Notes under the pieces: model-generated | Database searches by the model: none | Told to the model about the DNA's origin: nothing | Seen by the model: the letters and a program-made list of their open reading frames with translations, nothing else | Program-made: the position numbers and the translations under genes | In this document: in pieces, positions 5,735 through 33,344 of the stretch | How the letters are laid out: each line of letters starts with the position of its first letter | How positions within the stretch are numbered: the first letter of the stretch is position 1 | Origin: an uncultured Candidatus Saccharibacteria bacterium | Lineage (GTDB): Bacteria; Patescibacteriota; Minisyncoccia; Minisyncoccales; Staskawiczbacteraceae | DNA: 61,131 bases | Direction: 5' to 3' | Assembly: GCA_964475855.1 (NCBI GenBank) | Contig: CAYZAV010000004.1 | Location: 1 to 61,131, forward strand

Positions 5735-7387
5735 ATGAACAAAAAAGCTATTATTTCCGCATCTAATAACGCAATTTTCAAACTCAAAGTTTTGGCCAAA
5801 GAAAAAGAAAGCATCAGGCGTAAATTAGTGGTAATAGCCGGGGAACTTCGCCGTAAAGCTAAGCAATTGGCCGTGACGGCCAAACAACTTGCCAAAACCG
5901 CTAAGGAAAAGGAGGATACCAGAAGCAAACTGGCGATAACTGCTAAACAACTTGCGAAAACCGCCAAGGAGAAGGAGGAAGTTAGACGTAAGCTGGTAGT
6001 GACAGTAGAAGAAAAGGAAGATACTCGGAGCAAGCTAGCGGTGACAGCCAAGAAACTTGCGGTGACGGCAGAGGAAAAGGAAGATACCAGAAGCAAACTG
6101 GCGGTAACCGCTAAGCAACTTGCTATGACGGCAAAAGAGAAGGAGATTGTCAGGAGTAAGTTGGAGGTGACGGCAGGAGCACTGCGTCTGAAAGCTAGTC
6201 AACTTGCCATTATTGCTAAGGAAAAAGAAAGTGTCAGAAGTAAGTTGGAGGATACGGCAAAAGATCTTGCCTACGCTAAAGCCACCGATGAAGCGATGTT
6301 TGATAGTATTGGTGACGGGCTTTTGGCTACAGATGAAAAAGGAAGGATCACGTTGATAAATAAAACGGCTGAAACATTGCTCGGCAAGAAAAGTAACGCG
6401 GTCATGGGCAAGGTTTTTTCAAAAATCATTCTTCTGGAGGATGAAAAAGGCGCATCTATTCCGGCAGAGAACCATCCCATAAACTTAGCCTTGATATCTG
6501 GTACGACTGCTACTGGAGGGGGTCTTACCTATTACTACGCACGAAAAGACCAAACAAAATTTCCTCTGGCAATTATGGCGACTCCTATTATTATTGCCGG
6601 TAAAGTCATTGGAGCCATTAAAGTGTTTCGAGATATTACGGAAGAAAAAGAGATCGACAAAGCAAAAAGCGAGTTTGTATCTATTGCCTCTCACCAACTT
6701 AAAACTCCGGCAACCATTATCGGTTTATACGCAGAAATGTTGCTCAATGGCCCCGGTAGTGTTACCACAGCAAAGCAAAAAGAGCATATTAATGAGATTC
6801 GTAGTGCTAATTCTCGCATGATAGATCTTGTTAACACCTTGCTTAATGTTTCCCGTATAGAAATGGGTATTTTTTCGGTAAACCCAACGCCAGTAGATGT
6901 TATTGATGTGTTTAAAAATGTTATTAAAGAATCAGAGGCAAATTTCAAAGAAAAACGTATTATTCCCCAAGAAAAATATCACCAATTAACCCACGTAATA
7001 CCCATCGATAAATTATTACTGAACATTGTTTTTTCTAATTTAGTCTCTAACTCCATAAAATATACTTCTATGCGCGGGGTAATATCTATAGAAAGCTTAG
7101 AAGTAAAAAAAGGTGAGTACGTAAATAATAAAATGATAAAAGAAAACAGCTTATTGGTCAGTGTATCTGATAATGGCTGTGGTATTCCCACTGACCAGCA
7201 AGATAAGATTTTTACCAGGTTTTTCAGATCGGATAATGCACGCAGAGAACATACTGACGGTAATGGTCTTGGACTGTATATTATTAAATCAATTTTAGAT
7301 CATATTGGAGGCGATGTGTGGTTTTCATCGAAAGAAAAAGAAGGCACTACGTTTTATTTCACCGTCCCATTAACTATTAATGTATAA
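5735..7387 (+). CDS. Cytoplasmic sensor histidine kinase: repeat-rich coiled-coil N-terminus, PAS, HisKA, HATPase_c
   Basis: H-box SIASHQLKTP, N-box LVSNSIKYT, G-boxes DNGCGIP and GNGLGLY. No TM segment is evident. Confidence 0.85.
   Translation: MNKKAIISASNNAIFKLKVLAKEKESIRRKLVVIAGELRRKAKQLAVTAKQLAKTAKEKEDTRSKLAITAKQLAKTAKEKEEVRRKLVVTVEEKEDTRSKLAVTAKKLAVTAEEKEDTRSKLAVTAKQLAMTAKEKEIVRSKLEVTAGALRLKASQLAIIAKEKESVRSKLEDTAKDLAYAKATDEAMFDSIGDGLLATDEKGRITLINKTAETLLGKKSNAVMGKVFSKIILLEDEKGASIPAENHPINLALISGTTATGGGLTYYYARKDQTKFPLAIMATPIIIAGKVIGAIKVFRDITEEKEIDKAKSEFVSIASHQLKTPATIIGLYAEMLLNGPGSVTTAKQKEHINEIRSANSRMIDLVNTLLNVSRIEMGIFSVNPTPVDVIDVFKNVIKESEANFKEKRIIPQEKYHQLTHVIPIDKLLLNIVFSNLVSNSIKYTSMRGVISIESLEVKKGEYVNNKMIKENSLLVSVSDNGCGIPTDQQDKIFTRFFRSDNARREHTDGNGLGLYIIKSILDHIGGDVWFSSKEKEGTTFYFTVPLTINV
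5800..6270 (+). repeat. In-frame tandem coding repeats (about 66 nt / 22 aa, with an 11-residue sub-period)
   Basis: Iterated AKEKEDTRSKLAVTAKQLAKT units. They also create the spurious antisense ORF 5653..6096. Confidence 0.8.
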
Positions 7388-8392: not shown

Positions 8393-8420
8393 AAAAAAGG
8401 GAGACCATGATGATCTCCCC
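8393..8420 (-). terminator. Terminator closing the island (left edge)
   Basis: Minus strand reads GGGAGA-TCATCATGG-TCTCCC followed by T6. Confidence 0.6.
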
Positions 8421-8452
8421 TCGTTGATTACCCAAACGGGTTTTTTAAGGTG

Positions 8453-8680
8453 CTATGCATAGCACATTTGTCGGGCGTTGCCCATACGGATTTGAAGGTC
8501 CGTTATCGTTGGTTCAAGTTCCCTCCGTTGCGCTGGCGAGCAGCGTTGCTGTAGGTGCAGCAGTTCCCAATAGACATCCTCCAACTCCTGCAAAGATGCA
8601 CCCCCGAGCATCAACGTTTCTGCCTGGTCAATCAGGCTGGACTCTACCAATCCTCGTTCCCAATGATAAGCCTGCGCCAT
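8453..8680 (-). CDS. Island ORF 8, hypothetical 75 aa
   Basis: GGAGTAAC SD 7 nt before the ATG. Own promoter and terminator. No family recognised. Confidence 0.5.
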   Translation of the reverse strand: MAQAYHWERGLVESSLIDQAETLMLGGASLQELEDVYWELLHLQQRCSPAQRRELEPTITDLQIRMGNARQMCYA

Positions 8681-8741
8681 AGGTTACTCCGTTTCTCATG
8701 ATATCCATGGAATGTACGGTATGGCGGACACCGCAAATCCC

Positions 8742-8765
8742 TTTGAAGGCAAAGTTGCCTTCAAA
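8742..8765. promoter_or_regulatory. Perfect 11+11 palindrome at the predicted transcription start (operator-like)
   Basis: TTTGAAGGCAA-AG-TTGCCTTCAAA, immediately downstream of the -10 at 8769. Confidence 0.45.
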
Positions 8766-8768
8766 AAT

Positions 8769-8796
8769 AGTATATCACTGGCAGTGGTAAATACAA
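8769..8796 (-). promoter_or_regulatory. sigma70-like promoter, TTGTAT-16 nt-TATACT
   Basis: Read on the minus strand upstream of ORF 8453..8680. Confidence 0.4.
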
Positions 8797-8831
8797 TGGC
8801 CGCCTTCGCCAATGCTCCGGCGTGCCGAAGC

Positions 8832-8863
8832 AAAAAAAAGAGGGCAGTCGATTTGACTGCCCT
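8832..8863 (-). terminator. Strong rho-independent terminator
   Basis: AGGGCAGTC-AAATC-GACTGCCCT followed by CT8 on the minus strand. Confidence 0.75.
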
Positions 8864-8909
8864 ATGCCCCTAGCGCTCCCAATAGGAACTTGGGGGAATG
8901 TACTGTTGA

Positions 8910-9257
8910 TTAGCGGCCTCGGTGCCGCTTGCCCATTGCCTGGCGTTGGGCTCGGAAGATTACGACGTGAATCTTCGGTGCTCTTGCCATGGCCACCGGC
9001 TTCGGGATTGGTGAGAACTTTTTGGTGTTCTCGACCATTTTTGCCCGAAGCCGTTCGAGGCGTTCGTTGCGTTGGCGCGCACTGTCTTCCCGTTCGCGGG
9101 CTTCGAAGTTTGGGAGTTCGTCCTCATGATTGAGGACTTTCTCCCTGAGTTCGAAGTTTGGGAAAGCTGGGATGCCCAGGTACCGCTCCCATTCTTGCCA
9201 CGTGGCATTATCGGGAAGTGGGCTGATCGCCGCAACGAACAACAAGTCGTTAGCCAT
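8910..9257 (-). CDS. Island ORF 7, hypothetical 115 aa with an internal FPNFELRE / LPNFEARE repeat
   Basis: GGAGTAAC SD 9 nt before the ATG. The opposite-strand ORFs here lack an SD. Confidence 0.55.
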   Translation of the reverse strand: MANDLLFVAAISPLPDNATWQEWERYLGIPAFPNFELREKVLNHEDELPNFEAREREDSARQRNERLERLRAKMVENTKKFSPIPKPVAMARAPKIHVVIFRAQRQAMGKRHRGR

Positions 9258-9315
9258 GTCGTGTTACTCCATTGAGGATCCTTGGTGGCTAATCAAGGTT
9301 CCTGGGTTCAGGTAG

Positions 9316-9331
9316 GAGGAAGCGCTTCCTC
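9316..9331. promoter_or_regulatory. Perfect 16-nt palindrome in the leader of ORF 7
   Basis: GAGGAAGCGCTTCCTC. Confidence 0.4.
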
Positions 9332-9453
9332 TCTTTTCAAATCACTAAAGAATGTTAATTCGTTCGGAAGTATCTGCCATAAAAGACAATAATCCATCTA
9401 TTCAACTAATGATCTGAAAGGAGAGGATTTCCCCTGTTTCACTCTATATATCC

Positions 9454-9481
9454 ATTATAGCATATCCTACATGCTTGTCAA
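9454..9481 (-). promoter_or_regulatory. Consensus sigma70 promoter, TTGACA-16 nt-TATAAT
   Basis: Minus strand reads TTGACAAGCATGTAGGATATGCTATAATGGATATATAGAG. Closely resembles the promoter at 12665-12693. Confidence 0.7.
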
Positions 9482-9518
9482 TACCCTTACCCTCTTTTCG
9501 GGCCATTTGGTACTGGAC

Positions 9519-9561
9519 TGAAAAGAAGGGTGCTCGAATGTGCTAATTGCACTCGAGCACC
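9519..9561 (-). terminator. Terminator ending the long island operon
   Basis: GGTGCTCGAGTGC-AATTA-GCAC(AT)TCGAGCACC followed by CTTCTTTTC. Confidence 0.65.
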
Positions 9562-9567
9562 TTGGTT

Positions 9568-9762
9568 TTAGATTTCCCACCATCCGGTGGCGTAGGAGCG
9601 CTTCGGCTCCTGGCCGTTGCGCATCTGCTCCTTGTCTAAGCGGCGCTGTGCGCGTTTGCACTTTACCTTTACTCGTCCGATGCGCCGTCGGCGAGTCGGT
9701 TTTTTGTGCTCTTGGCTGCGCGCCTGGGCGAACTCACGGGTCGTCATCATTCCCTTGGTCAC
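9568..9762 (-). CDS. Island ORF 6, small Arg/Lys-rich protein (paralogue of 12398..12586)
   Basis: AAAGGA sits 7 nt before a GTG at 9762; ATG alternatives lie at 9750 and 9747. Core KKPTRRRRIGRVKVKCKRAQRR...GQEP aligns with the other copy. Confidence 0.45.
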   Translation of the reverse strand: MTKGMMTTREFAQARSQEHKKPTRRRRIGRVKVKCKRAQRRLDKEQMRNGQEPKRSYATGWWEI

Positions 9763-9857
9763 TTTACTATCCTTTCTAAAAAATCCTTCTAACAGTTTAC
9801 CATGCCCCATGCATCGTAACCTGTAGTGAAGGGGTAAACGGTTTTTTTTGTTTGCCC
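9763..9857 (-). repeat. Island intergenic module M5
   Basis: Minus strand: GGGCAAAC...GTTTACCCC hairpin, CTTCACTACAG, hairpin CAGGTTAC..GTAAACTG, TTAGAAG, then the SD. Confidence 0.8.
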
Positions 9858-9873
9858 TTTAGTTATTCGCGAT

Positions 9874-10077
9874 TTACGAATAACCTTCGTAGTGGGATTT
9901 GCCACACTTGCGGCATTTCCCAGACCATCCATAGTCGCCATCTTCCTTGATGTCGATCCAGGAGTGGATCCATCCCTCCTTGCACCAATTCCGCTTGATG
10001 TAGCGGATCACTTCGGTGACGATGGCGACACCTATCGCCACCATGAGAACAACTCCCAGAACGATCAATACCTCCAT
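9874..10077 (-). CDS. Island ORF 5, 67-aa single-TM protein with a Trp/Cys-rich tail
   Basis: GAGGAG SD. N-terminal hydrophobic helix, then C..W..W.D...CRKCG...Y.GY. Same architecture as 60519..60710. Confidence 0.55.
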   Translation of the reverse strand: MEVLIVLGVVLMVAIGVAIVTEVIRYIKRNWCKEGWIHSWIDIKEDGDYGWSGKCRKCGKSHYEGYS

Positions 10078-10178
10078 GGTATCTCCTCTAAAAAAAGCGA
10101 TTTCTTCTAAAAGTTTTTCAGCCCATTACTGATTAACTTTATTGAAGGGGAAAGCGCGGCATCATGCTTTGCTTTCCC
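10078..10178 (-). repeat. Island intergenic module M4
   Basis: GGGAAAGC-N15-GCTTTCCC hairpin (10148-10178), CCCCTTCAATAAAG (10137-10150), AAAGTT..AACTTT hairpin, TTTTAGAAG, then the SD. Confidence 0.8.
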
Positions 10179-10188
10179 TTATTTTTAA

Positions 10189-10545
10189 CTATTCCCACGT
10201 CCTGTTGGGGATAGCGTAGAGGGAGAAGGCGAACGTCGCCTTGGCCACCTCCTCGTAGGTGTACTCGTGGCGGTCGGTCAGCCGCGGCAAGCCGCGGACG
10301 CCCATGACCACGATTCGGTCGCCAAGTCCCAGGTTTACCTGGGGTGGCTTTTCCGGAATCGGGACGTCAATCCCGAATCGTTGCCTCATGGCCTTGATCG
10401 TCGCTTCGTGCGACGGGTTTAGGCAGGGTACGACGCCCTGGCTCACCAATTCCTTGACGGCTGCCACCGTCAGGGCGGTACGCGTGATGACACAGTCATC
10501 ACTGAACATTGAATCTGCCAATGCGAAACCAAAATACGTAGCCAT
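10189..10545 (-). CDS. Island ORF 4, STIV B116-like / DUF1874-like protein (118 aa)
   Basis: The pattern ALADSMF...NPSHEAT...VNLGLGDRIVVMGV..LPRL...YTYEEV...FAF matches my recollection of the B116/YddF family layout. Recalled, not searched. Confidence 0.55.
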   Translation of the reverse strand: MATYFGFALADSMFSDDCVITRTALTVAAVKELVSQGVVPCLNPSHEATIKAMRQRFGIDVPIPEKPPQVNLGLGDRIVVMGVRGLPRLTDRHEYTYEEVAKATFAFSLYAIPNRTWE

Positions 10546-10695
10546 TTGCTATCTCTTTCATTTTGAATAGCAGCGCGCCAGTTTGAAAGGTTGGCACAAA
10601 CCTTTATTTGCAGAATACGCTTCTGCTAGAATTTACCAATCAACATGACTGATGCACTCTAGTGAAGGGGCGAAATGCGTCATGCAAGTCGCCCT
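10546..10695 (-). repeat. Island intergenic module M3 (class A module followed by a class B leader)
   Basis: GGGCGA..TCGCCC hairpin, CCCCTTCACTAGAG (10657-10670), then AAAGGTT-TGTGCC-AACCTTT, CAAACTGGCGCGC and TTCAAAATGAAAGAGA. Confidence 0.75.
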
Positions 10696-10700
10696 TTACC

Positions 10701-11027
10701 CTACCCGCACCCGCAGTTCGGGCAGGTCTCGTGAAGCACGTTCGCGTGCCCGCAAAAGGGGCACAGCGGTGGGCTCGTCTGGCACTCTGCCAGATAGGTC
10801 GCCCTCCGTGCTTCTTCTGTGGCGAGGAGAAACCGTTCAGGTTTCCCCAGTTCCAAGGCGGCTAAGCCGTCATTGGTTGACCCCTGGATGGAATACTCCA
10901 CCCAGAGGTTCAGTCCCTCAATTGTCAGTTTTTTGGTGGCGTTTTGCCACCCCAGCCCAACACATTGGATTTTGATGTGTTGGGGGAATTGATCAAAAAT
11001 ACTGACTGCTTCTTGGTTGACTTTCAT
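10701..11027 (-). CDS. Island ORF 3, 108-aa protein with a C-terminal zinc ribbon
   Basis: AAAGGGAAG sits 5 nt before the ATG at 11027. C-terminus CPFCG-N9-CPNCGCG. The track's TTG start at 11078 lacks an SD. Confidence 0.55.
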   Translation of the reverse strand: MKVNQEAVSIFDQFPQHIKIQCVGLGWQNATKKLTIEGLNLWVEYSIQGSTNDGLAALELGKPERFLLATEEARRATYLAECQTSPPLCPFCGHANVLHETCPNCGCG

Positions 11028-11254
11028 AGTGGCTTCCCTTTCATTTTGAAAACCGTTGTATGTCCTTAGTTCTGCCAACGCGGCAGTTTGAAGGTGGACA
11101 TATTCCCTTCTTTCAAATCATCACGGCGCGGCATTCGATATATCCTTTACCATTGCAAGCAACGGTGAATGTGATATATCTGGCGCGTGCGCCTGGTGAT
11201 CTGAAAGAAAGGAGGATTCTTTGAATTAGGCGAATCCTTATAGCCTTTTGCGCA

Positions 11255-11530
11255 TTAGTTGCGCTCTGCCTGGTCGCGGAGAAATTTTCTCCACAGCGGA
11301 CGGACGAGATATGCCGGAAGCGGTTTTACCGCTTCAATCATATCGTCCGCCTGTGCTGGTTCAAACAGGTATTCAACACACCCAGTTTGGGTGTTTACGA
11401 CCTGCACGCACATGGCGCAGTCGTCTTCCTCTTCCTGCTTGGCCGCGGCAATCGCGGTGGCAAGGTTACTGATGTGATCGAGAAATGACCACGCAGTAGT
11501 GCCAATCTGTCGACAATAAATATCGTAGAT
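11255..11530 (-). CDS. Island ORF X, 91 codons, no canonical start behind a full module and SD
   Basis: The frame opens right after a TGA. GAGGGG lies 6 nt upstream of ATC at 11530 and ATT is 3 codons later. The only ATG is at codon 40 and has no SD. Not in the ORF track. Confidence 0.35.
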   Translation of the reverse strand: MYDIYCRQIGTTAWSFLDHISNLATAIAAAKQEEEDDCAMCVQVVNTQTGCVEYLFEPAQADDMIEAVKPLPAYLVRPLWRKFLRDQAERN

Positions 11531-11629
11531 ACGTCACCCCTCGTTAGAAAAACTTCTAAAAGCTTACCATACCCAGTGCATCGTAAGCTTTAGTGAAGGG
11601 GAAAGTGCGGCATCGTGCGTTGCTTTCCC
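11531..11629 (-). repeat. Island intergenic module M2
   Basis: GGGAAAGC..hairpin (11599-11629), CCCCTTCACTAAAG (11588-11601), AGCTTAC-N15-GTAAGCT hairpin (11561-11589), TTTTAGAAG, then GAGGGG. Confidence 0.8.
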
Positions 11630-11639
11630 TTGTTTTTTG

Positions 11640-12215
11640 CTAATCGCCCAGTTGAGCGATTGCTTTGCGCGCCCTGGCGACGACCTCCTTGAAGTCGTGA
11701 AACCTGTTTTTCAGGGCTTCTTCGAAGAGTTTCTCCCACTCCTCCTTGGTGGCACAGAAGAAGCTCATGCCGGGGCGGCGCATGTCGCGCCAGGACAGGG
11801 CCTTTTGCCCGTAGGTCTCACCCGGGCAAAGCCCCTCAACTCCGTCCTTTCGCATCCATCTTTGTTGCCCTTGGTTGGGCTCGCCAAAGATGCCCCGCAC
11901 GATGCGGTATTTCCCTGCTCTTCCATGAGCCTCATACTTTTCCCTCTCTACCTTGACGAACTGAGCGATGGCCTCCTTGATCTCTTCCAGGGGCCAAGGG
12001 AAAATAGCTTGGATGGAGACATTATCTCCCCATCCGGTTTCCCTGATTCGAACGGAGCACCATATGGCTCCGAGTTCCTTCATTCTTTTTTCAATTGCCT
12101 TGGGGTCTGCTAACCCCAGGCCACCAGATTTGATGGTGGCAAACGTGCCACCCTTTCGTCCGGCTTCGATCTTGGCCCCAACCAGATAGGGCGCCAATTC
12201 GATGAGGTTAGCCAT
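11640..12215 (-). CDS. Island ORF 2, hypothetical 191 aa
   Basis: AGGGGA SD 7 nt before the ATG. Largest island ORF. No family recognised. Confidence 0.6.
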   Translation of the reverse strand: MANLIELAPYLVGAKIEAGRKGGTFATIKSGGLGLADPKAIEKRMKELGAIWCSVRIRETGWGDNVSIQAIFPWPLEEIKEAIAQFVKVEREKYEAHGRAGKYRIVRGIFGEPNQGQQRWMRKDGVEGLCPGETYGQKALSWRDMRRPGMSFFCATKEEWEKLFEEALKNRFHDFKEVVARARKAIAQLGD

Positions 12216-12310
12216 TTTAGATCCCCTAAAAACTTCTAAAATTTGATAACACGAAATTGTGTTACAAACCTTATTGAAGGGGAAAGCGCGGCATCGTGCG
12301 TTGCTTTCCC
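12216..12310 (-). repeat. Island intergenic module M1
   Basis: GGGAAAGC-N15-GCTTTCCC hairpin (12280-12310), CCCCTTCAATAAGG (12269-12282), TTTGTAACAC-N6-GTGTTATCAAA hairpin, TTTTAGAAG, then AGGGGA. Confidence 0.8.
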
Positions 12311-12397
12311 TTGTTTACTATTCCGGCGTGAAAGTAGGGAGGGTTTTTTGAAATAGGCAAACCCTCTTGGCCTGCAATGCACACCATGTGTATTGCA

Positions 12398-12586
12398 TTA
12401 AATAACATCGCGCTCGGTGAGTGCGTAACCCACCGTGGTGGGTTCGCCCCCCTGGCGGAGGGTCTCATTTGCTCCGCGTCGGGCGGCACGCTTCGCGCGG
12501 CGTTTGACAACGGTCAAGCGCCGTCGGGTGCTTTTGGCCAATAGCCTACGTGATTGACCAACCCGGTGGCAAACCATCATTTTCAT
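12398..12586 (-). CDS. Island ORF 1, small Arg-rich protein (paralogue of 9568..9762)
   Basis: GAGGGA sits 9 nt before the ATG at 12586. Core AKSTRRRLTVVKRRAKRAARR...GGEP. Confidence 0.45.
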   Translation of the reverse strand: MKMMVCHRVGQSRRLLAKSTRRRLTVVKRRAKRAARRGANETLRQGGEPTTVGYALTERDVI

Positions 12587-12608
12587 AATATTCAATCCCT
12601 CTGTATTT

Positions 12609-12659
12609 GCGTCAAATTAAGGATCACTTGTATAGGGTATTTGACGCATTTACCCTATA
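12609..12659. promoter_or_regulatory. Two overlapping, mutually exclusive perfect 9-bp inverted repeats in the island leader
   Basis: TATAGGGTA/TACCCTATA at 12631-12639 and 12651-12659. GCGTCAAAT/ATTTGACGC at 12609-12617 and 12639-12647. Confidence 0.6.
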
Positions 12660-12664
12660 CCTCC

Positions 12665-12693
12665 ATTATACTACTACCAAGAGTTCTTGTCAA
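12665..12693 (-). promoter_or_regulatory. Perfect consensus sigma70 promoter, TTGACA-17 nt-TATAAT, reading into the island
   Basis: TATAAT at 12665-12670 and TTGACA at 12688-12693 on the minus strand. Confidence 0.75.
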
Positions 12694-12707
12694 GCCCCGT
12701 GAGGGGT

Positions 12708-12719
12708 TGTCGCACAATA
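12708..12719 (+). repeat. TGTCGCACAATA copy 3 (intergenic, at the island/typA-terminator junction)
   Basis: Exact 12-mer. Confidence 0.95.
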
Positions 12720-12753: not shown

Positions 12754-12786
12754 ATTCGTAAATTCGTAACAAATTCGTAAATTCGT
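12754..12786. repeat. Four phased ATTCGT repeats between the typA stop and its terminator
   Basis: ATTCGT at 12754, 12762, 12773 and 12781. Confidence 0.7.
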
Positions 12787-29412: not shown

Positions 29413-30302
29413 TATACTGGAATTGCCGCTCTTAACTTCGGATGACTTCCGATGCAATTATTACAACAAATGACTTTGCGTGACGGCCGTATACTGTCAT
29501 CATTGTAAAACTCTTCGCATTTTGTCGCACAATAAGCGCAGGTACCCACAACTTCGCGGTTTTCTGATTCCGCGACCGGCGTTACCATCCGATTGTCAAA
29601 CACGAACAAACTGCCTTTAAATCGTTTGCCCGGGTATTTTTTAATGTAGGTATGAATACCATCTTTCAGCTGGAAAATATTGGTAAACCCCTCTTTTTTT
29701 AATAATACCGTTGCTTTTTCGCACCTGATTCCACCCGTGCAAACCGCCACCACTTTTTTGTTTTTTAAATGTGATAGTCCTGCAATTTTAGCCGGTAATT
29801 CTTTGAATTTTTGCAGCCCCGGATTTACCGTTTTTTCAAAATATCCGGCCTGGATTTCAAAGTCATTGCGTAAGTCCAATATCACAAAATCATCCTTCGG
29901 CACGCCAGAGCCTTTGGCGTCGGTGGCGCGATACATTTTTTCCAATTGCGTGGCGGTTACTGTAGGCGCCGTATCTTTTTTAATGTTTAACTCCCCCACT
30001 CCCAGCGTTACCACTTCCGGCCGCACTTTTACTTGCAGTTTGGTAAACCCTTTGCCATTGCCAGCACTTTCTTTAATTACAATGTTTTTAAAGATAGAAA
30101 TCTTGCGCAGCGCTTTGATATATTTTTTGATTGCTGTTGTTTCTCCCTCAAATGTGGCATTGACCCCCTCATGCGCCACCAGCATCCGCCCCGTCAAACC
30201 AAAACCAGCAGCAAGCTGTTTATGCATATCCCTAAACTTTTCAGGGTTTTTTATCTTAGTGAATTTGTAAAATAAAATGATGGTAAAACTCTCTTTTTTC
30301 AT
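29412..30302 (-). CDS. trhO: Rhodanese-domain protein of the UPF0176/TrhO (YceA) type
   Basis: HEGVNATFEG, LDLRNDFE...GYF, active-site CTGGIRCEK, C-terminal Cys cluster. Confidence 0.75.
   Translation of the reverse strand: MKKESFTIILFYKFTKIKNPEKFRDMHKQLAAGFGLTGRMLVAHEGVNATFEGETTAIKKYIKALRKISIFKNIVIKESAGNGKGFTKLQVKVRPEVVTLGVGELNIKKDTAPTVTATQLEKMYRATDAKGSGVPKDDFVILDLRNDFEIQAGYFEKTVNPGLQKFKELPAKIAGLSHLKNKKVVAVCTGGIRCEKATVLLKKEGFTNIFQLKDGIHTYIKKYPGKRFKGSLFVFDNRMVTPVAESENREVVGTCAYCATKCEEFYNDDSIRPSRKVICCNNCIGSHPKLRAAIPV
29523..29534 (+). repeat. TGTCGCACAATA copy 7 (inside the trhO-like gene)
   Basis: Exact 12-mer. Confidence 0.95.
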
Positions 30303-30317
30303 TATTTTTTTGCAATG

Positions 30318-31022
30318 TTATTTTCCCCTGTGTCTATCAAGCTCCTGTTGCATCCAGGTATCGCCAGCAGTATCTATTTCCTCTTCACTAGGTTGATCTG
30401 CGTAATTAGGATGCCTTCTTGCATTATCCATGGCCCGTCTGAGTGCTAAGTGACGATACTCTTTCCTTCTTTCTTCACCTTCTTTTTCTTGCTTTAATAT
30501 AGTCAGCTCTTTTAGGATTTTCTCTTTATCATTAAATATTTCGTGATATTGTTCAGAAACATTTTTTACCAGTTTCTGATAATCATCCTTAGATAAGGTC
30601 ACTTCTTTTAAATTTTTCTCTAGTTCTTGCAAGGCTAAATTTCTCCTCTTGTTCTCTTCTTCCTCTTCCAACTTCATTTGCACTCGTTCTTCTATGACTT
30701 CTTCTATATTTCTTAGATTACCTTTGGCTCCGAAAAAATTAAACTCTTCCATTGAAAGGAATAAATAGGTGAAAACTTTCTTGAAGAATATGAAAGAACA
30801 CAATACGACTGTTGGCCAAATCAAGATTTTCAATAAGTCTATGAATTGATCATAGCTAATAAGGCCTTTCCAGATAAATATGAAGACCGATAGTAAAATA
30901 ACTACAAAAATAACATATGGGACAGAATTAATGAGCCGCTCCAGAATTTCATTAATATTAGAATCTTTCCCGAAGGAAACTCTGAACCTGCCCGTTTCTG
31001 CTTTAAGGTGATAGTCTGTCAT
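30318..31022 (-). CDS. Membrane plus coiled-coil protein, unknown function
   Basis: Two TM segments followed by a long charged helix (EEEEENKRR...). Confidence 0.55.
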   Translation of the reverse strand: MTDYHLKAETGRFRVSFGKDSNINEILERLINSVPYVIFVVILLSVFIFIWKGLISYDQFIDLLKILIWPTVVLCSFIFFKKVFTYLFLSMEEFNFFGAKGNLRNIEEVIEERVQMKLEEEEENKRRNLALQELEKNLKEVTLSKDDYQKLVKNVSEQYHEIFNDKEKILKELTILKQEKEGEERRKEYRHLALRRAMDNARRHPNYADQPSEEEIDTAGDTWMQQELDRHRGK

Positions 31023-31023
31023 A

Positions 31024-31467
31024 TTATTTACTCAACACCAATATCAACCTCGGCTCTCCATCTCCATAAAAATTTTCTTTGCGGCTTTTGGCAACAAATC
31101 CCAGGGATTCATACAGCTTAAGCGCCTTGGTGTTTTCTGGGTGTACGTCCAGATCAATGTGCTTTGTGTCTTTTAATTCTTCTAATACTTTTTCTATGGC
31201 GGCGCGGCCAATGCCTTGCCCTTGGAAATGTGGCTCAACTACTAATCCGCTAATACGGACATGGCTTTCACCCTTTTTTTCATAACAAATACTTCCCACT
31301 GTTGCGCCTTTAGCTTCAACTAGGTACACGACGCCAATATCCAGCACAACCAACCATTCGTCTTCGATTAGCATGGGCGAATAGATCTTCAACCCCGCGG
31401 CGGTTTTCTCAATTTCTATCAGTTCTTCAATATCTGCATTGGTAGCTTTTGTAAGGCTTATTTGCAT
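31024..31467 (-). CDS. GNAT-family N-acetyltransferase
   Basis: VVEPHFQGQGIGRAAIEKV...LKLYESLGF. Confidence 0.85.
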   Translation of the reverse strand: MQISLTKATNADIEELIEIEKTAAGLKIYSPMLIEDEWLVVLDIGVVYLVEAKGATVGSICYEKKGESHVRISGLVVEPHFQGQGIGRAAIEKVLEELKDTKHIDLDVHPENTKALKLYESLGFVAKSRKENFYGDGEPRLILVLSK

Positions 31468-31519
31468 ATAGTTACCCGCATTCTAACAAAAAACCACCTA
31501 AAATGAAAGGCAGCTTACC

Positions 31520-32143
31520 CTATTTTCCCATCAAGCAAGAAGTTAGTTCTTGGGTCGGGATCCATTCGCATTGGCCGTTAGCAAGTTTGCCGCAGGTGGC
31601 GGATTTATAGCAGGCATATTCTTCTTTGTATTCGCAGGTGGTGATAACATTTTGCTGTGCGGAACAAATTTGGCCGCTGCAGCCAGAAATATAGCAGCCG
31701 GCTTGGATGGTTTGTTTGGTTACCATTATGGTTACCGTAGTTTGGGTAGAATTGGTTATTTGGAATTTGTAATTTACCTGGGTATGCGATGGTGCCGTCA
31801 TGGTGCCAATCGTAAATGTTTTTTGTTCTGTGCCAATATCGCCGCCAGTTGCGCTGAACTGATAAGAAAGTTCGCCGGCCCAGATGCAAACAACGCCTTC
31901 TTTGCATCGGGAATCATTGATGCTGTTTAAGGTAAGGCTCAAACTATCGGGAAATACTGCTTTTTCGTTCAAGGAAAATGTAATCGGTTGGTTGAATTCA
32001 GCTTGCCCGGTAGTTTGGGGGATGATGTTGGACGGTTCTTGCTTGGTCGTAAACGGTTGATAAGAAAAAAATGCCAACCCTGTGGCAATAATGGCGATGA
32101 ATATCCCGATAATAACTAGCAACCAGGTTTTCTGATTATTCAT
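31520..32143 (-). CDS. Anchored secreted protein with a Cys-rich C-terminus, unknown function
   Basis: N-terminal TM. 207 aa. Confidence 0.55.
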   Translation of the reverse strand: MNNQKTWLLVIIGIFIAIIATGLAFFSYQPFTTKQEPSNIIPQTTGQAEFNQPITFSLNEKAVFPDSLSLTLNSINDSRCKEGVVCIWAGELSYQFSATGGDIGTEQKTFTIGTMTAPSHTQVNYKFQITNSTQTTVTIMVTKQTIQAGCYISGCSGQICSAQQNVITTCEYKEEYACYKSATCGKLANGQCEWIPTQELTSCLMGK

Positions 32144-32190
32144 GGTGATTTTTTAAATAAAGTTTTCGGCAGAGGCGAAGCAATAATATG

Positions 32191-32261
32191 TTCCGGGGCT
32201 TGGATTCGAACCAAGATACAGGGCTCCAAAGGCCCTAGTCCTACCGTTAGACGACCCCGGA
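32191..32261 (-). tRNA. tRNA-Gln (anticodon UUG), no encoded CCA
   Basis: Hand fold: acceptor TCCGGGG/CCCCGGA, anticodon stem AGGGC/GCCCT with loop CTTTGGA, T arm CTTGG-TTCGAAT-CCAAG. Confidence 0.85.
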
Positions 32262-32396
32262 ACGTAATAAATTTTTCATACGAAAAATTTAAACGTTCCA
32301 GAGACGTGTAATTTCAAGAGAAATTATTACGTCTCGGAATACCATTCATATTACCATTATTTTTTAATATTTCAACCCATGGTATAATCATAAAAT

Positions 32397-33344
32397 ATGA
32401 AAAAAGATATTTTCTACGTTACTGTGGCGGCTATGCTTTTTACATTTGCAACAGCTGTGCATGCCAAAACCGATTTGTCTATTTCTGAAACCGATGTCAC
32501 TTTTTCTAAAGAGGATATTCTCAGTGGGGAAACGGTTACGGTATATGCCAGGATTTTCAACATTGGTGACACTAATGTATTTGGTAATGTGGTGTTTTTG
32601 AACAATGGCAAAGAAATATCAGACCCCCAGCCTGTTTCGGTGCGCCCCAATACCTATGATGATGTATTTATCACCTGGAAACCCGATTCAGGAAATTATA
32701 GCATTACGGCAAAAATTATCGGATTAAATCCCCCAGATGACAATGTTAATAATAATTTGACCGTTAAAAAAGAAGTGTTTGTAGATAACGATACCGACCA
32801 TGACGGCATCGGGGATAAAAAAGACACTGATCCCGATAGCGATACGCTAACTATTAGCCAGGAAAAAGCCAAACATACCGACCCACTAAAAGCCGATACC
32901 GATGGAGATGCCGTTAACGATAATATAGATGCGTTTCCCTTAGATAAAAGCAAATGGGGCGATGCTAATACTGCTACTGTTCCAACGGGAAGTGACTCGG
33001 GACAGGTTGCATCTGTACCGGTTGAAACCAGTGAATCGCCAAAAAGCAAATATCAGGCGGTATACGACCAAATACAAAAAGGCATAGAAAGTATTACCCA
33101 ATCAGCACCTGTGCAAACTGTCGCACAATACATTGACAAGGCCACCGGCGGAAAAATTCCCGAAGCGTATAAAGCAGTAACTTCAAAACTAAATTTGGCG
33201 GCTGTGGCAAATAATACCATTGATTATAAAAAACCAGCCGGAGGAATCTTTGAATTGGTTAAAACATATTGGCCCTGGGGCGCGGCTATTTTAGGAGTAT
33301 TATTCTTACTATTTCTATATAAATCCTGGCGTGGCCGAGAGTAA
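32397..33344 (+). CDS. Surface protein: CARDB-like domain, Asp-rich calcium-binding-type repeats, C-terminal anchor
   Basis: Signal peptide. DLSISE..V.F......GETVTVYARIFNIG. DNDTDHDGIGDKKDTDPDSD and DTDGDAVNDNID. Confidence 0.65.
   Translation: MKKDIFYVTVAAMLFTFATAVHAKTDLSISETDVTFSKEDILSGETVTVYARIFNIGDTNVFGNVVFLNNGKEISDPQPVSVRPNTYDDVFITWKPDSGNYSITAKIIGLNPPDDNVNNNLTVKKEVFVDNDTDHDGIGDKKDTDPDSDTLTISQEKAKHTDPLKADTDGDAVNDNIDAFPLDKSKWGDANTATVPTGSDSGQVASVPVETSESPKSKYQAVYDQIQKGIESITQSAPVQTVAQYIDKATGGKIPEAYKAVTSKLNLAAVANNTIDYKKPAGGIFELVKTYWPWGAAILGVLFLLFLYKSWRGRE
33119..33130 (+). repeat. TGTCGCACAATA copy 8 (inside 32397..33344)
   Basis: Exact 12-mer. Confidence 0.95.

What the first reader, a model, noticed from the sequence alone, without database searches (positions are those of the whole stretch)
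8436..12705. G+C-rich ~4.3 kb island of nine small same-strand ORFs of unknown function between msrA and typA
The flanking DNA is AT-leaning and full of recognisable housekeeping genes. Between the msrA start and the typA terminator the composition changes abruptly: two 60-nt lines I hand-counted gave 50% and 70% G+C. All supportable ORFs there are on the minus strand. Each has an SD (GGAGTAAC, AGGGGA, GAGGAG, GAGGGG, AAAGGA) 5-9 nt before its start. Three near-consensus sigma70 promoters (12665-12693, 9454-9481, 8769-8796) and three hairpin/T-run terminators (9519-9561, 8832-8863, 8393-8420) divide it into one seven-gene operon and two single-gene units. I recognise no housekeeping family. 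The only family-level resemblance is ORF 10189..10545 to the B116/DUF1874 family, which is virus- and ICE-associated. There is no integrase, transposase, RT, tRNA or obvious direct repeat at the borders. The genome-wide 12-mer TGTCGCACAATA is absent from the island but sits exactly at its right edge (12708). Together this looks like horizontally acquired, phage- or ICE-derived DNA encoding an uncharacterised multi-gene system. It resembles a phage early-region or anti-defence/host-takeover cassette in style.
Basis: partly seen in the sequence, partly recalled or inferred. Interest (0 to 1): 0.85.

Follow-up and report, generated by a model that had tools for sequence, protein, structure and literature searches.

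The report
Mobile gene-cassette island with ring nuclease
A 4.3-kb piece of foreign DNA sits between two housekeeping genes of an uncultivated candidate-phyla-radiation (CPR) bacterium; it carries a virus-type "ring nuclease" gene and about eight orphan genes, separated by a previously undescribed family of folded RNA-like spacer elements that recur in similar islands of other CPR genomes.

Summary
Bases ~8393-12705 have 51.2% G+C against 43.4% for the rest, the highest of any 4.3-kb stretch in the window. All credible genes are on the minus strand. There are two perfect sigma-70 promoters and three terminators.

The host is a Candidatus Staskawiczbacteria (CPR) bacterium. In its relatives msrA lies 0.16-0.6 kb downstream of typA, so the segment is an insertion at a variable hotspot. 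Four independent assemblies carry it, so it is not a chimera.

ORF 10189-10545 is a true DUF1874/AcrIII-1/Crn2 fold (AlphaFold pLDDT 92; the 16 significant PDB matches, E<=0.001, are all this family) and keeps the catalytic histidine. The other genes are near-orphans.

Five copies of a two-hairpin element (T1) separate the cistrons, and two long-hairpin elements (T2) sit in leaders. Both recur, with compensatory base changes, in islands of other CPR genomes that carry different genes, at this locus and at rpsP-khpA. They occur nowhere else in 1.2 Mb searched and match no Rfam family.

Best reading: a modular, shuffled, phage-style accessory island, probably anti-defence, whose cistrons are punctuated by RNA processing or stability elements. 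The biochemical functions are inferred, not shown.

The parts
12665..12693 (-). Promoter P1 (TTGACA-17-TATAAT) of the seven-gene operon
   Evidence: 12/12 consensus match. Homologous promoters (TTGACAAGA...) head the islands in L074, L075 and L096.
12630..12660 (-). 5'-terminal leader hairpin of the P1 transcript
   Evidence: RNA fold z = -3.4; inverted repeat I17.
12398..12586 (-). o65: 62-aa arginine-rich protein, paralogue of o80
   Evidence: 38% identity to o80 over the full length. Independently called as a gene in L004. The family has only 3 clusters in 5.8 billion proteins.
12233..12310 (-). T1 element, copy w1 (hairpin 1 abutting hairpin 2)
   Evidence: z = -5.7; E = 6e-16.
11640..12215 (-). 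o191: 191-aa protein of a very rare family
   Evidence: One 50%-identical homologue on L001. Nine clusters in 1.84 billion representatives, one of them (P0130, a 972-aa repeat protein) judged spurious and left out of alignment A4. The N-terminal ~100 aa are modelled with confidence, but no significant PDB fold match was found.
11553..11629 (-). T1 element, copy w2
   Evidence: z = -5.2; E = 5e-18.
11255..11530 (-). o52/o91: ORF of 52 aa from the ATG at 11413, or 91 aa from an ATC at 11530 preceded by the SD GAGGGG
   Evidence: Open frame and codon-position G+C. No homologue found and not called by the public gene callers, so it is uncertain.
11100..11245 (-). T2b element: short hairpin plus a ~108-nt rod-like hairpin (core 11106-11212)
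   Evidence: -61.6 kcal/mol, z = -7.5. Across 4 loci the consensus has 41 pairs, 10 of them with compensatory changes, and conserved G-U pairs.
10701..11027 (-). o108 (o125 if the TTG at 11078 is used): protein with a C-terminal CxxC...CxxC zinc ribbon
   Evidence: Gene call of 108 aa; weak zinc-ribbon and L32-like matches only.
10620..10694 (-). T1 element, copy w3
   Evidence: z = -5.1; E = 1.5e-9.
10189..10545 (-). o118: DUF1874 / AcrIII-1 / Crn2-type ring nuclease homologue
   Evidence: More than 1100 homologues at 65-84% identity. Profile hit to AFV3-109 with the histidine aligned. AF2 pLDDT 92. The 16 significant Foldseek PDB hits (E<=0.001) are all DUF1874 structures. N43-P44-S45-H46 are invariant.
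10104..10178 (-). T1 element, copy w4
   Evidence: z = -4.1; E = 7e-18.
9874..10077 (-). o67: small protein with a hydrophobic N-terminal stretch (read by eye as one membrane helix) and a Cys-rich tail
   Evidence: ORF and gene call. Small Cys-containing ORFs ending in GKCxxC occupy the matching slot in L074 and L088.
9786..9857 (-). T1 element, copy w5
   Evidence: z = -3.2; E = 3e-13.
9568..9762 (-). o80: 64-aa arginine-rich protein (GTG start), last gene of the operon
   Evidence: 65% (tblastn) to 72% (aligned) identical homologue directly after a T1 in L088; paralogue of o65.
9529..9561 (-). Operon terminator hairpin, followed by CUUCUUUUC
   Evidence: I7; z = -6.1.
9454..9481 (-). Promoter P2 (TTGACA-16-TATAAT with an upstream TG)
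   Evidence: 12/12 consensus match.
9328..9426 (-). T2a element in the 5' leader of o115
   Evidence: z = -4.4. Homologous copies in L073, L074, L088 and L098.
8910..9257 (-). o115: orphan protein with repeated PNFE(L/A)RE motifs
   Evidence: ORF, gene call and codon-position G+C; no family hit.
8841..8863 (-). Terminator of the o115 unit
8453..8680 (-). o75: orphan protein.
   Evidence: The promoter was not recovered by the scan.
8396..8422 (-). Terminator at the left end of the island, just upstream of the msrA promoter
   Evidence: A similar terminator (GATCATGATGATC core) ends the islands of L074 and L088.
12708..12719 (+). Host 12-mer TGTCGCACAATA at the right junction (host sequence, not part of the island)
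   Evidence: It occupies the same position in L074, where a 20-nt palindrome interrupts it.

Best explanation
This is a horizontally acquired accessory-gene island with its own promoters and terminators. It lies in the typA-msrA intergenic hotspot of a Candidatus Staskawiczbacteria (CPR) chromosome.

Shown:
- The segment is foreign in composition.
- It is absent from relatives, in which typA and msrA are adjacent.
- It is assembled from cassettes that occur in other combinations at the same locus and at another hotspot (rpsP-khpA) in other CPR genomes.
- One cassette encodes a DUF1874 protein with the fold and the conserved histidine of the AcrIII-1/Crn2 ring nucleases.
- The cistrons are separated by a conserved, covarying two-hairpin element (T1, 5 copies), and the leaders contain long rod-like hairpins (T2, 2 copies). 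Both fold better on the sense strand.

Inferred:
- Two very strong sigma-70 promoters transcribe the island into a seven-gene and a one-gene mRNA. A third single-gene unit (o75) has only a weak promoter candidate that the scan did not recover.
- T1 and T2 act at the RNA level as punctuation. Hairpin 1 would be a 3' protective stem for the upstream cistron. The long imperfect hairpin 2, or T2, would be a double-strand-specific (RNase III-type) processing site and a 5' stabiliser for the downstream cistron. Each cassette would then be expressed as an insulated unit wherever it lands.
- Because T1 and T2 are the sequences shared between otherwise unrelated cassettes, they also offer homology for cassette gain, loss and reshuffling.
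- The DUF1874 protein degrades cyclic tetra-adenylate and so silences cOA-dependent immunity. The small orphan proteins are other accessory, probably counter-defence or regulatory, factors, including two arginine-rich proteins that may bind nucleic acid.
For: Composition:
- G+C is 51.2% against 43.4%; third-position G+C is 0.55-0.76 against 0.37-0.49 in the flanking genes.

Insertion:
- The host TypA is 85% identical to that of a Staskawiczbacteria genome.
- In L006, L063, L011 and L008 msrA follows typA after 157-620 bp holding unrelated or no ORFs, and no island protein is found in any of 67 relatives' loci.
- The identical island with both junctions is present in independent assemblies.

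Modularity:
- L074 reads P-T2b-B116-T1-Cys49-T1 | P-T2a-basic ORF-terminator-msrA.
- L088 reads T2b-Cys49-T1-o80 | P-T2a-basic ORF-terminator-msrA.
- L001 reads B116-T1-140aa-T1-o191 homologue-T2-93aa.
- L073 and L098 have B116 with other cargo, separated by T1 or T2, next to khpA (in L073 between rpsP and khpA).
- L092 has three unrelated genes separated by two T1 copies.
- G+C is about 50-61% in the L073 island while its flanks are 32-41%.

Ring nuclease:
-. His-47 is the general acid of AcrIII-1 (10.1101/778746).

T1 and T2 as structured, sense-strand elements:
- All 16 T1 copies give the same two-hairpin fold in their own minimum-energy structures; the 12 run against shuffled controls have z from -3.2 to -8.4.
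- Hairpin 1 shows compensatory changes: position 4 is AT/CG/GC, position 5 AT/GC/CG, position 8 CG/TA.
- In hairpin 2, 4 of 12 pairs are compensatory even on a crude alignment.
- In T2b, 10 of 41 pairs are compensatory and the G-U pairs are conserved.
- The sense strand folds better than the antisense strand (-33.8 against -28.0 kcal/mol, p = 0.008; 42 against 24 G-U pairs).
- In 1.23 Mb a covariance model finds T1 at E<=6e-9 only in island-type arrays. The weaker hits are chance pattern-selected loci (L094 E=0.003; L086/L087 E=0.83) or the antisense of copy w2 (E=0.23).
- Promoters and terminators.
Against: - No transcript data exist, so processing at T1 or T2 is pure inference. Hairpin 2 of some T1 copies has only about 15 paired bases, which is short for RNase III.
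- Breakpoints between variants fall near start codons as well as at T elements, so T-to-T recombination is not the only route of shuffling.
- No type III CRISPR, CARF or other cOA gene lies in the 61-kb window. No phage genes flank the island. The target of the ring nuclease in this setting is therefore unknown.
- DUF1874 proteins may have roles other than anti-CRISPR in native systems (10.1101/2023.01.10.523387).
- Eight of the nine proteins have no assignable function.
Confidence: 0.5

Rival explanations
1. T1 and T2 are DNA-level recombination sites of an integron-like cassette platform. Each gene plus its hairpin site would be a mobile cassette, inserted and excised by a site-specific recombinase encoded elsewhere. 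This would resemble a cluster of attC sites lacking an integrase.
For: - The cassettes are small, same-strand and mostly promoterless.
- Each is followed by an imperfect palindrome with conserved outer boxes and a variable centre.
- Gene order and content differ between loci.
- Five of the 16 copies end in GTTAGAA, close to the attC R' box GTTRRRY.
Against: - The R''/R' boxes (RYYYAAC / GTTRRRY) are not present in most copies.
- No tyrosine recombinase lies in the window or in any island locus.
- The sense (top) strand folds better than the bottom strand, whereas attC recombines as a folded bottom strand (established knowledge). Conserved G-U pairs fit RNA better than DNA.
- Breakpoints between variants are not confined to one point in the element.
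Confidence: 0.1
2. The island is a domesticated, host-beneficial module. The DUF1874 protein would serve as a cellular Crn2-type ring nuclease, or another housekeeping regulator, and the orphans as host defence or stress proteins. It would be a defence or regulatory island rather than an anti-defence island.
For: - The B116 subfamily is very strongly conserved (65-84% identity across more than 1100 clusters).
- It sits behind strong promoters in several CPR chromosomes without phage genes.
- Cellular Crn2 proteins exist (PMC7293037; PMC12409355).
- The island lies among stress genes (msrA, msrB, hrcA-grpE-dnaK).
Against: - No type III CRISPR or CARF genes lie within 61 kb.
- No PADLOC defence model matches convincingly; the only hits are marginal (o115 E=0.0072, o108 E=0.059).
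- Composition and patchy distribution argue for recent transfer rather than a conserved host function.
- DUF1874 is far more common in viruses than in cells.
Confidence: 0.15
3. T1 and T2 are binding sites for the island's own arginine-rich proteins (o65, o80). They would form a phage-lambda-N-like system in which an RNA-hairpin-binding peptide controls read-through or translation along the operon.
For: - o65 is the first gene after P1 and o80 the last.
- They are paralogues with an arginine-rich core (TRRR[LI]..VK..RA.RR) in the style of the RNA-binding arginine-rich motif of lambda N (the resemblance is from established knowledge, not tested).
- T1 has an invariant internal loop and an invariant CUUC/GAAG base that could be a protein recognition site.
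Against: - Islands with T1 or T2 but without an o65/o80 homologue exist (L001, L073, L074, L092, L098), so the elements do not depend on these proteins.
- Hairpin 1 lacks a U-tract, so there is no obvious terminator to override.
- No sequence homology to N proteins was found.
Confidence: 0.1
4. The island is a decaying remnant of a prophage, satellite or ICE early region. It would have lost its integrase and structural genes and now be neutral cargo.
For: - Phage-style features: consensus promoters, small orphan genes, a virus-type DUF1874 gene, and mosaicism.
Against: - All ORFs are intact with a coding signature, and promoters and terminators are intact.
- The same organised architecture recurs in several genomes at 1.6-4.3 kb without any phage structural gene nearby.
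- T1 and T2 are absent from 2.9 million viral contigs.
Confidence: 0.12
5. The island is an assembly chimera that joins DNA of two organisms.
For: Abrupt change in composition.
Against: - The island is identical in each assembly that carries it. L003 spans both junctions; the typA junction also appears in L004 and in a 404-kb contig from different samples.
- Related variants lie at the same locus in other metagenomes.
Confidence: 0.01

Closest known systems
AcrIII-1 / Crn2 ring nucleases (DUF1874, PF08960; SIRV1 gp29, STIV B116, AFV3-109, Csx1-Crn2)
   Same: o118 has the same fold (Foldseek E about 1e-5, TM 0.64-0.81). The histidine that acts as general acid in AcrIII-1 is invariant (H46, in the motif NPSH). 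The size is similar, about 115 aa.
   Different: Sequence identity to solved members is only 12-22%, and the window protein alone misses the Pfam threshold (E = 0.16). It belongs to a large, tightly conserved metagenomic subfamily. That subfamily is absent from cultured phages and is found in CPR chromosomes and a few viral contigs. It is neither in a virus nor in a type III CRISPR locus here. Activity is untested.
PeSL 'mobile regulatory cassettes' of T4-type phages (PMC2839356, PMC4122927)
   Same: Short conserved structured motifs flank small orphan genes in hypervariable regions. They are the shared sequences between otherwise unrelated genes and go with insertion, deletion and replacement of those genes.
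   Different: A PeSL is a sigma-70 promoter fused to a terminator stem-loop. T1 contains no promoter and no U-tract, and consists of two abutting hairpins. The setting is a bacterial chromosome, not a phage. No mini-circles have been shown.
RNase III processing sites between the early genes of phage T7 (established knowledge)
   Same: A strong host-type promoter drives a polycistronic early-style operon. Its cistrons are separated by related imperfect hairpins with a conserved internal loop.
   Different: There is no sequence similarity. T1 adds a separate upstream hairpin. Cleavage is not demonstrated, and some hairpin 2 copies are shorter than two helical turns.
Integron cassette arrays / CALINs with attC sites
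   Same: Same-strand, mostly promoterless small cassettes are each followed by an imperfect palindrome with conserved ends and a variable middle. Cassette content varies between genomes.
   Different: There are no R''/R' core sites, no IntI, and the preferred folding strand is the opposite one. The array has its own internal promoters and terminators.
Anti-CRISPR genes in integrase-less hypervariable chromosomal regions (e.g. AcrIIA22 islands, PMC8545432)
   Same: An anti-defence-type gene is embedded with small unknown genes in a hypervariable genomic region that lacks obvious mobility genes.
   Different: The host phylum, proteins and regulatory architecture all differ. No functional selection has been done here.

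Membership tests
DUF1874 / AcrIII-1 / Crn2 ring nuclease | DUF1874 fold | tested here: met
   AF2 model with pLDDT 92. The 16 significant Foldseek PDB hits (E<=0.001) are all DUF1874 structures (2x4i, 2j85, 6scf, 8y7f, 8y7g, 2j6b), with probability 1.00. Profile hit to 2j6b at E = 0.021.
DUF1874 / AcrIII-1 / Crn2 ring nuclease | Absolutely conserved active-site histidine (His-47 of SIRV1 gp29) | tested here: met
   H46 is invariant in 53 homologues and aligns with the GH(Q)AT histidine of AFV3-109. Its role is taken from 10.1101/778746.
DUF1874 / AcrIII-1 / Crn2 ring nuclease | Dimer that binds and cleaves cyclic tetra-adenylate | not testable with these tools
   Needs biochemistry.
DUF1874 / AcrIII-1 / Crn2 ring nuclease | Pfam PF08960 gathering score | tested here: not met
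   The window protein scores 12.6 bits against a cut-off of 26. Many close homologues carry a precomputed PF08960 hit.
Crn2 (cellular ring nuclease) | Encoded in or next to a type III CRISPR-Cas locus | tested here: not met
   No cas or CARF genes in the 61-kb window or the 20-kb L002 context. The rest of the genome was not seen.
AcrIII-1 (viral anti-CRISPR) | Encoded by a virus or other mobile element | tested here: inconclusive
   The setting is a chromosomal island without phage genes. Homologues are in a phiKZ-like 233-kb contig and five IMG/VR contigs, but none is in cultured phages.
Integron cassette array / CALIN | attC sites with R'' RYYYAAC and R' GTTRRRY core boxes | tested here: not met
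   The 5' box is CTTCAMTAAAG and the 3' box is mostly TTTTAGAAG. GTT is present in only 5 of 16 copies, and none has an AAC partner.
Integron cassette array / CALIN | Integron integrase nearby (not required for a CALIN) | tested here: not met
   No recombinase domain in the window or in the island loci. The only rve gene is an IS inserted beside the island in L075.
Integron cassette array / CALIN | The bottom strand is the better-folding, recombinogenic strand | tested here: not met
   The sense (top) strand is more stable (-33.8 against -28.0 kcal/mol, p = 0.008).
PeSL mobile regulatory cassettes | Composite of a strong sigma-70 promoter and a terminator stem-loop between ORFans | tested here: not met
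   No promoter match lies inside any T1 or T2. Hairpin 1 lacks a U-tract.
PeSL mobile regulatory cassettes | The elements mark the boundaries of gene insertion, deletion and replacement | tested here: inconclusive
   Gene content differs between T elements, but some breakpoints lie at start codons.
RNase III intercistronic processing sites (T7 early type) | Imperfect RNA duplex of about two helical turns between cistrons | tested here: inconclusive
   T2 stems have 16-22 contiguous pairs. T1 hairpin 2 has 12-25 pairs, depending on the copy.
RNase III intercistronic processing sites (T7 early type) | Cleavage by RNase III | not testable with these tools
   Needs RNA-end mapping or an enzyme assay. 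An rnc gene is present in a related CPR contig (L073).
Classical integrative island, prophage or ICE | Integrase, tRNA target, flanking direct repeats | tested here: not met
Any described RNA family (Rfam 15) | Covariance-model match for T1 or T2 | tested here: not met
   No hit at gathering threshold and none at E<=1 at T1 or T2 positions. The only overlap is a chance-level 6A RNA hit (E = 2.8) on hairpin 1 of copy w5.

The most novel reading that the evidence does not exclude
T1 and T2 could define a new cassette-exchange system of CPR bacteria. In this reading they are a family of structured sites, read as RNA and perhaps also used as DNA recombination junctions. Through them small counter-defence genes would be captured, insulated for expression and swapped between hotspots of very different CPR genomes without a linked integrase. 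This would be functionally an integron or PeSL analogue for the candidate phyla radiation, and the orphan genes would be a reservoir of new anti-defence proteins.
Probability: 0.15. Interest if true: 0.85.

Novelty: new variant of a known kind. Interest (0 to 1): 0.6.

Why it matters
CPR/Patescibacteria have tiny genomes and few recognised mobile elements, and how they exchange and express accessory genes is poorly understood. This locus gives three things.

- It shows a concrete, recurrent island architecture, with hotspots at typA-msrA and rpsP-khpA.
- It shows a large, highly conserved subfamily of virus-type ring nucleases living in CPR chromosomes.
- It shows two candidate structured RNA motif families that are absent from Rfam.

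If the elements are processing and insulation modules, they explain how unrelated genes can be plugged into one operon and still be expressed. If the orphans are counter-defence proteins, the islands are a source of new inhibitors. In either case the predictions can be tested with metatranscriptomes and simple biochemistry.

Tried and rejected
- An rRNA or other known RNA as the cause of the high G+C: no Rfam or tRNA hit.
- Pfam, PHROGs, PADLOC and NCBIfam on all island proteins: nothing significant except the weak B116 hit.
- Pfam on the cargo of other islands (L073, L001): nothing.
- The T2 18-mer in IMG/VR: 9 hits, all chance matches inside AT-rich phage genes.
- The gapped T1 pattern in IMG/VR: only chance hits.
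- The T2a core in IMG/VR: none.
- The T1 pattern in JGI metagenomes: 8 loci, of which only L088 and L092 are real.
- The o191 structure: the N-terminal domain is confident, but there is no significant PDB match (best E = 0.047).
- T1 as a sigma-70 promoter: the conserved boxes are 34 nt apart and no hexamers match.
- T1 resembling a T3/T7-type phage promoter (CCCTTCACTAAAG): noted from memory only. The upstream half is variable and no phage polymerase is present, so this was dropped.
- T1 hairpin 1 as a CRISPR-repeat mimic: no CRISPR-DR match, and the stems vary between copies.
- T1 as an intrinsic terminator: no U-tract.
- MAFFT could not align hairpin 1, so its covariation was counted by script. 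Covariance model R1 covers only hairpin 2 and the conserved linker.
- A search for an island-free variant of the same strain through the exact MsrA protein: all three contigs carry the island.
- Plasmid database: only 31%-identical hits in Planktothrix plasmids.

Full report
**1. Observation**

The segment 8436-12705 is 51.2% G+C against 43.4% for the rest of the window. It is the richest 4.27-kb stretch of the 61 kb, about three standard deviations above the mean.

All plausible ORFs are on the minus strand. In their annotated frames the second codon position is the G+C-poorest (0.36-0.49; o65 is less clear at 0.54). The third position is G+C-rich (0.55-0.76), against 0.37 in msrA and 0.49 in typA. 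The ORFs therefore look coding and use a different codon style from the host.

Two promoters, at 12693-12665 and 9481-9454, match TTGACA/TATAAT at 12 of 12 positions. Terminator hairpins lie at 9561-9529, 8863-8841 and 8422-8396.

No tRNA, Rfam family, integrase or transposase is present. The 12-mer TGTCGCACAATA occurs 11 times, always on the + strand. One copy abuts the right edge of the island and none lies inside it. The ORF count is uncertain only for the 52-aa ORF, whose frame is open back to an ATC placed 6 nt after the SD GAGGGG.

**2. Host and insertion**

The TypA encoded next to the island is 85% identical to that of a Candidatus Staskawiczbacteria genome, and the 67 related loci retrieved are dominated by Patescibacteria. 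The rest of the window is housekeeping: DnaX, CysRS, DnaB, RecR, sortase, Mur ligase, SerRS and a 5S/23S end.

In four relatives msrA lies directly downstream of typA, with spacers of 157-620 bp. The spacers are empty or hold unrelated small ORFs. None of the 67 loci encodes any island protein. The typA-msrA spacer is thus a variable hotspot, and the 4.3 kb is an insertion there.

The identical island is present in four independent assemblies. L003 spans both junctions, and a 404-kb contig also carries it, so a chimera is excluded.

**3. The proteins**

ORF 10189-10545 (o118) has more than 1100 homologues at 65-84% identity, many with a precomputed PF08960 hit.

- A profile of 53 of them hits AFV3-109 (2J6B), with the conserved histidine aligned.
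- An AlphaFold model (pLDDT 92) gives 16 significant PDB matches (E<=0.001), all to the DUF1874 family: SIRV1 ORF114a, STIV B116, AcrIII-1 bound to cA4, Csx1-Crn2 and AFV3-109. E-values are about 1e-5 and TM-scores 0.64-0.81.
- His-47 is the absolutely conserved general acid of AcrIII-1 (10.1101/778746). Its counterpart H46 is invariant here.

Membership by fold and by key residue is therefore met; activity is untested.

The subfamily is absent from cultured phages. It occurs in a phiKZ-like 233-kb contig and in five IMG/VR contigs at 61-66% identity, and in several CPR chromosomes.

The 191-aa protein has a single close homologue (50% identity) and nine matching clusters among 1.84 billion representatives, one of which (a 972-aa repeat protein) looks spurious. 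Its N-terminal domain models confidently but matches no solved fold.

o65 and o80 are arginine-rich paralogues (38% identity). Their family has three clusters in 5.8 billion proteins.

The remaining ORFs are a zinc-ribbon protein, a small protein with a hydrophobic N-terminus and a Cys-rich tail, and two orphans. None has a significant family match in Pfam, PHROGs, PADLOC or NCBIfam.

**4.

T1. Five exact copies of CCCCTTCAMTA lie on the minus strand, all in the island, one in each of five intergenic gaps. Each is the centre of a 72-78-nt element, T1.

- A G+C-rich hairpin (GGG...CCC) follows the upstream gene, 8 to 87 nt after its stop codon.
- It abuts a second hairpin whose base is the invariant CUUC/GAAG.
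- A conserved asymmetric internal loop (A-M-U opposite U-A) follows, then a variable stem.

The same element occurs in six other metagenomic or genomic loci. In all of them it lies between same-strand small genes.

- L001 carries homologues of o118 and o191 in a different order.
- L073 has four copies, between 310-, 212- and 346-aa unknowns and o118.
- L074, L075 and L088 are variants at the msrA locus.
- L092 is a 217-kb bacterial contig with three unrelated genes.

All 16 copies give the same two-hairpin architecture in their own minimum-energy folds; the 12 tested against shuffled controls have z-scores of -3.2 to -8.4. Hairpin 1 shows compensatory changes: position 4 is AT/CG/GC, position 5 AT/GC/CG, position 8 CG/TA. 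Hairpin 2 does too, at 4 of 12 pairs even on a crude alignment. A covariance model searched over 1.23 Mb (the window plus 99 loci) finds T1 at E<=6e-9 only in these island-type arrays; the weaker hits are chance pattern-selected loci or the antisense of one copy.

T2. A second element, T2, has a pyrimidine-rich 5' arm (CCTTTCTTTCAGATCA) and a purine-rich 3' arm (TGATTTGAAAGAAGG). These close a 100-130-nt rod, again preceded by a short hairpin.

- It occurs in the leader after P2 (T2a, 9328-9426) and inside the operon (T2b, 11106-11212).
- It also occurs in L073, L074, L075, L088, L098 and L001.
- Across four loci T2b has 41 consensus pairs, 10 of them compensatory, with G-U pairs conserved in all sequences.

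The sense strand of T1 folds better than the antisense strand (-33.8 against -28.0 kcal/mol, p = 0.008) and has more G-U pairs. Neither element matches any Rfam family, and neither occurs in IMG/VR.

**5. Modularity**

At the same typA-msrA locus three architectures exist.

- Window: P1 - o65 - T1 - o191 - T1 - o52 - T2b - o108 - T1 - o118 - T1 - o67 - T1 - o80 - terminator | P2 - T2a - o115 - terminator | o75 - terminator.
- L074: P - T2b - o118 homologue - T1 - small Cys ORF - T1 | P - T2a - small basic ORF - terminator.
- L088: T2b - small Cys ORF - T1 - o80 homologue | P - T2a - small basic ORF - terminator.

L075 has an IS inserted between typA and the island promoter. L073 and L098 carry o118 homologues with other cargo, punctuated by T1 or T2, next to khpA; in L073 the array lies between rpsP and khpA. 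The L073 island is 50-61% G+C in a 32-41% genome.

The islands thus share a composition, a promoter type (TTGACAAGA...) and the T elements, but not their genes. This argues for a common mobile gene pool and against a single co-functional nine-gene machine. Homology breakpoints lie at T elements and also close to start codons.

**6. Mechanism (inference)**

The strong promoters, leader hairpins and intercistronic double hairpins resemble phage early operons, whose polycistronic RNAs are cut at related imperfect hairpins (the T7 RNase III sites; established knowledge). My proposal for T1 and T2 has four parts.

- Hairpin 1 protects the 3' end of the upstream cistron.
- Hairpin 2, or T2, is a double-strand-specific processing site and a 5' stabiliser for the downstream cistron.
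- Any cassette is thereby expressed in an insulated way.
- The shared elements supply homology for cassette turnover, as proposed for the PeSL cassettes of T4-type phages (PMC2839356).

The DUF1874 protein would remove cA4 and so blunt cOA-dependent immunity. Two cautions apply. No cOA system is visible in the window. A native-system study also questions a purely anti-CRISPR role for viral DUF1874 proteins.

Alternatives are listed with their tests:

- an attC-like DNA recombination site; the core boxes, the integrase and the strand preference all fail;
- a domesticated Crn2-like function;
- control by the arginine-rich proteins in the manner of lambda N; weakened because islands without those proteins keep T1 and T2;
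- a decaying prophage remnant.

**7. Verdict**

The finding is real, and richer than described. The horizontally acquired, phage-style reading is largely right. 'One multi-gene system' should be replaced by 'a mosaic of shuffled cassettes around a conserved ring-nuclease gene'. The T1 and T2 elements are the new and most testable feature.

I rate it a new variant of known kinds: a hypervariable accessory or anti-defence island with mobile regulatory punctuation. Interest is moderate to high, because it concerns CPR bacteria, offers two undescribed structured motifs, and holds a set of orphan proteins next to a counter-defence enzyme.

Noticed in passing
window 320, 8057, 12708, 13430, 15431, 28602, 29523, 33119, 37544, 40618, 49760: The exact 12-mer TGTCGCACAATA occurs 11 times (0.34 expected), always on the + strand. 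It lies in coding and non-coding DNA alike, has no conserved flanks, and its 8-mer cores hardly occur outside it. It also occurs, in the same orientation relative to typA, in related Staskawiczbacteria loci (L006, L014, L074). It looks like a lineage-specific polar or uptake-type signal (Chi/KOPS/DUS-like).
   Followed up: partly
L074 186-205 and 1401-1420: A 20-nt palindrome, CCTGCCTGCCGG(T/C)AGGCAGG, is inserted twice: once splitting the host 12-mer (TATTG|...|TGCGACA) and once in the loop of a T2a element. It behaves like a tiny mobile palindromic insert.
   Followed up: no
window 5735-7387 (+): The histidine kinase next to the island has a long N-terminal array of near-identical ~18-aa repeats (KEKEDTRSKLAVTAKQLA...), ahead of its PAS/HisKA/HATPase domains.
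   Followed up: no
window 12754-12786: Tandem ATTCGTAAATTCGT repeats lie between the typA stop codon and its terminator. A similar ACGAATTT-type repeat follows typA in L075.
   Followed up: no
window 30318-33344, around tRNA-Gln 32190-32261: Three ORFs (234, 207 and 315 aa) without any Pfam match flank the only tRNA of the window, in its most AT-rich kilobase (36.5% G+C at 30001-31000). This may be a second accessory region.
   Followed up: no
L096 7470-7980: Downstream of the B116 homologue in an AT-rich CPR contig lies a ~500-nt G+C-richer stretch. It has only one short called ORF and ends in a strong terminator. There is no Rfam match; it may be a non-coding RNA.
   Followed up: partly
L073 2905-4463: The 8.7-kb rpsP-khpA gap of this CPR contig also holds a small two-gene pair that looks like a toxin-antitoxin pair and a nucleotidyltransferase fragment. 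They lie upstream of the G+C-rich T1-punctuated array, which suggests a compound hotspot.
   Followed up: no
window 12325-12395; L001 1885-1905; L098 ~790 and ~1500: A further small conserved hairpin, (T)GCACA-UGG-UGUGC(A), recurs in the leaders of several island genes in different loci.
   Followed up: no
JGI 7000000074 and related contigs (protein P0073): A 72%-identical B116 homologue sits in phiKZ-like jumbo-phage contigs of about 233 kb, next to phiKZ gp29-like and tail-tube genes.
   Followed up: partly
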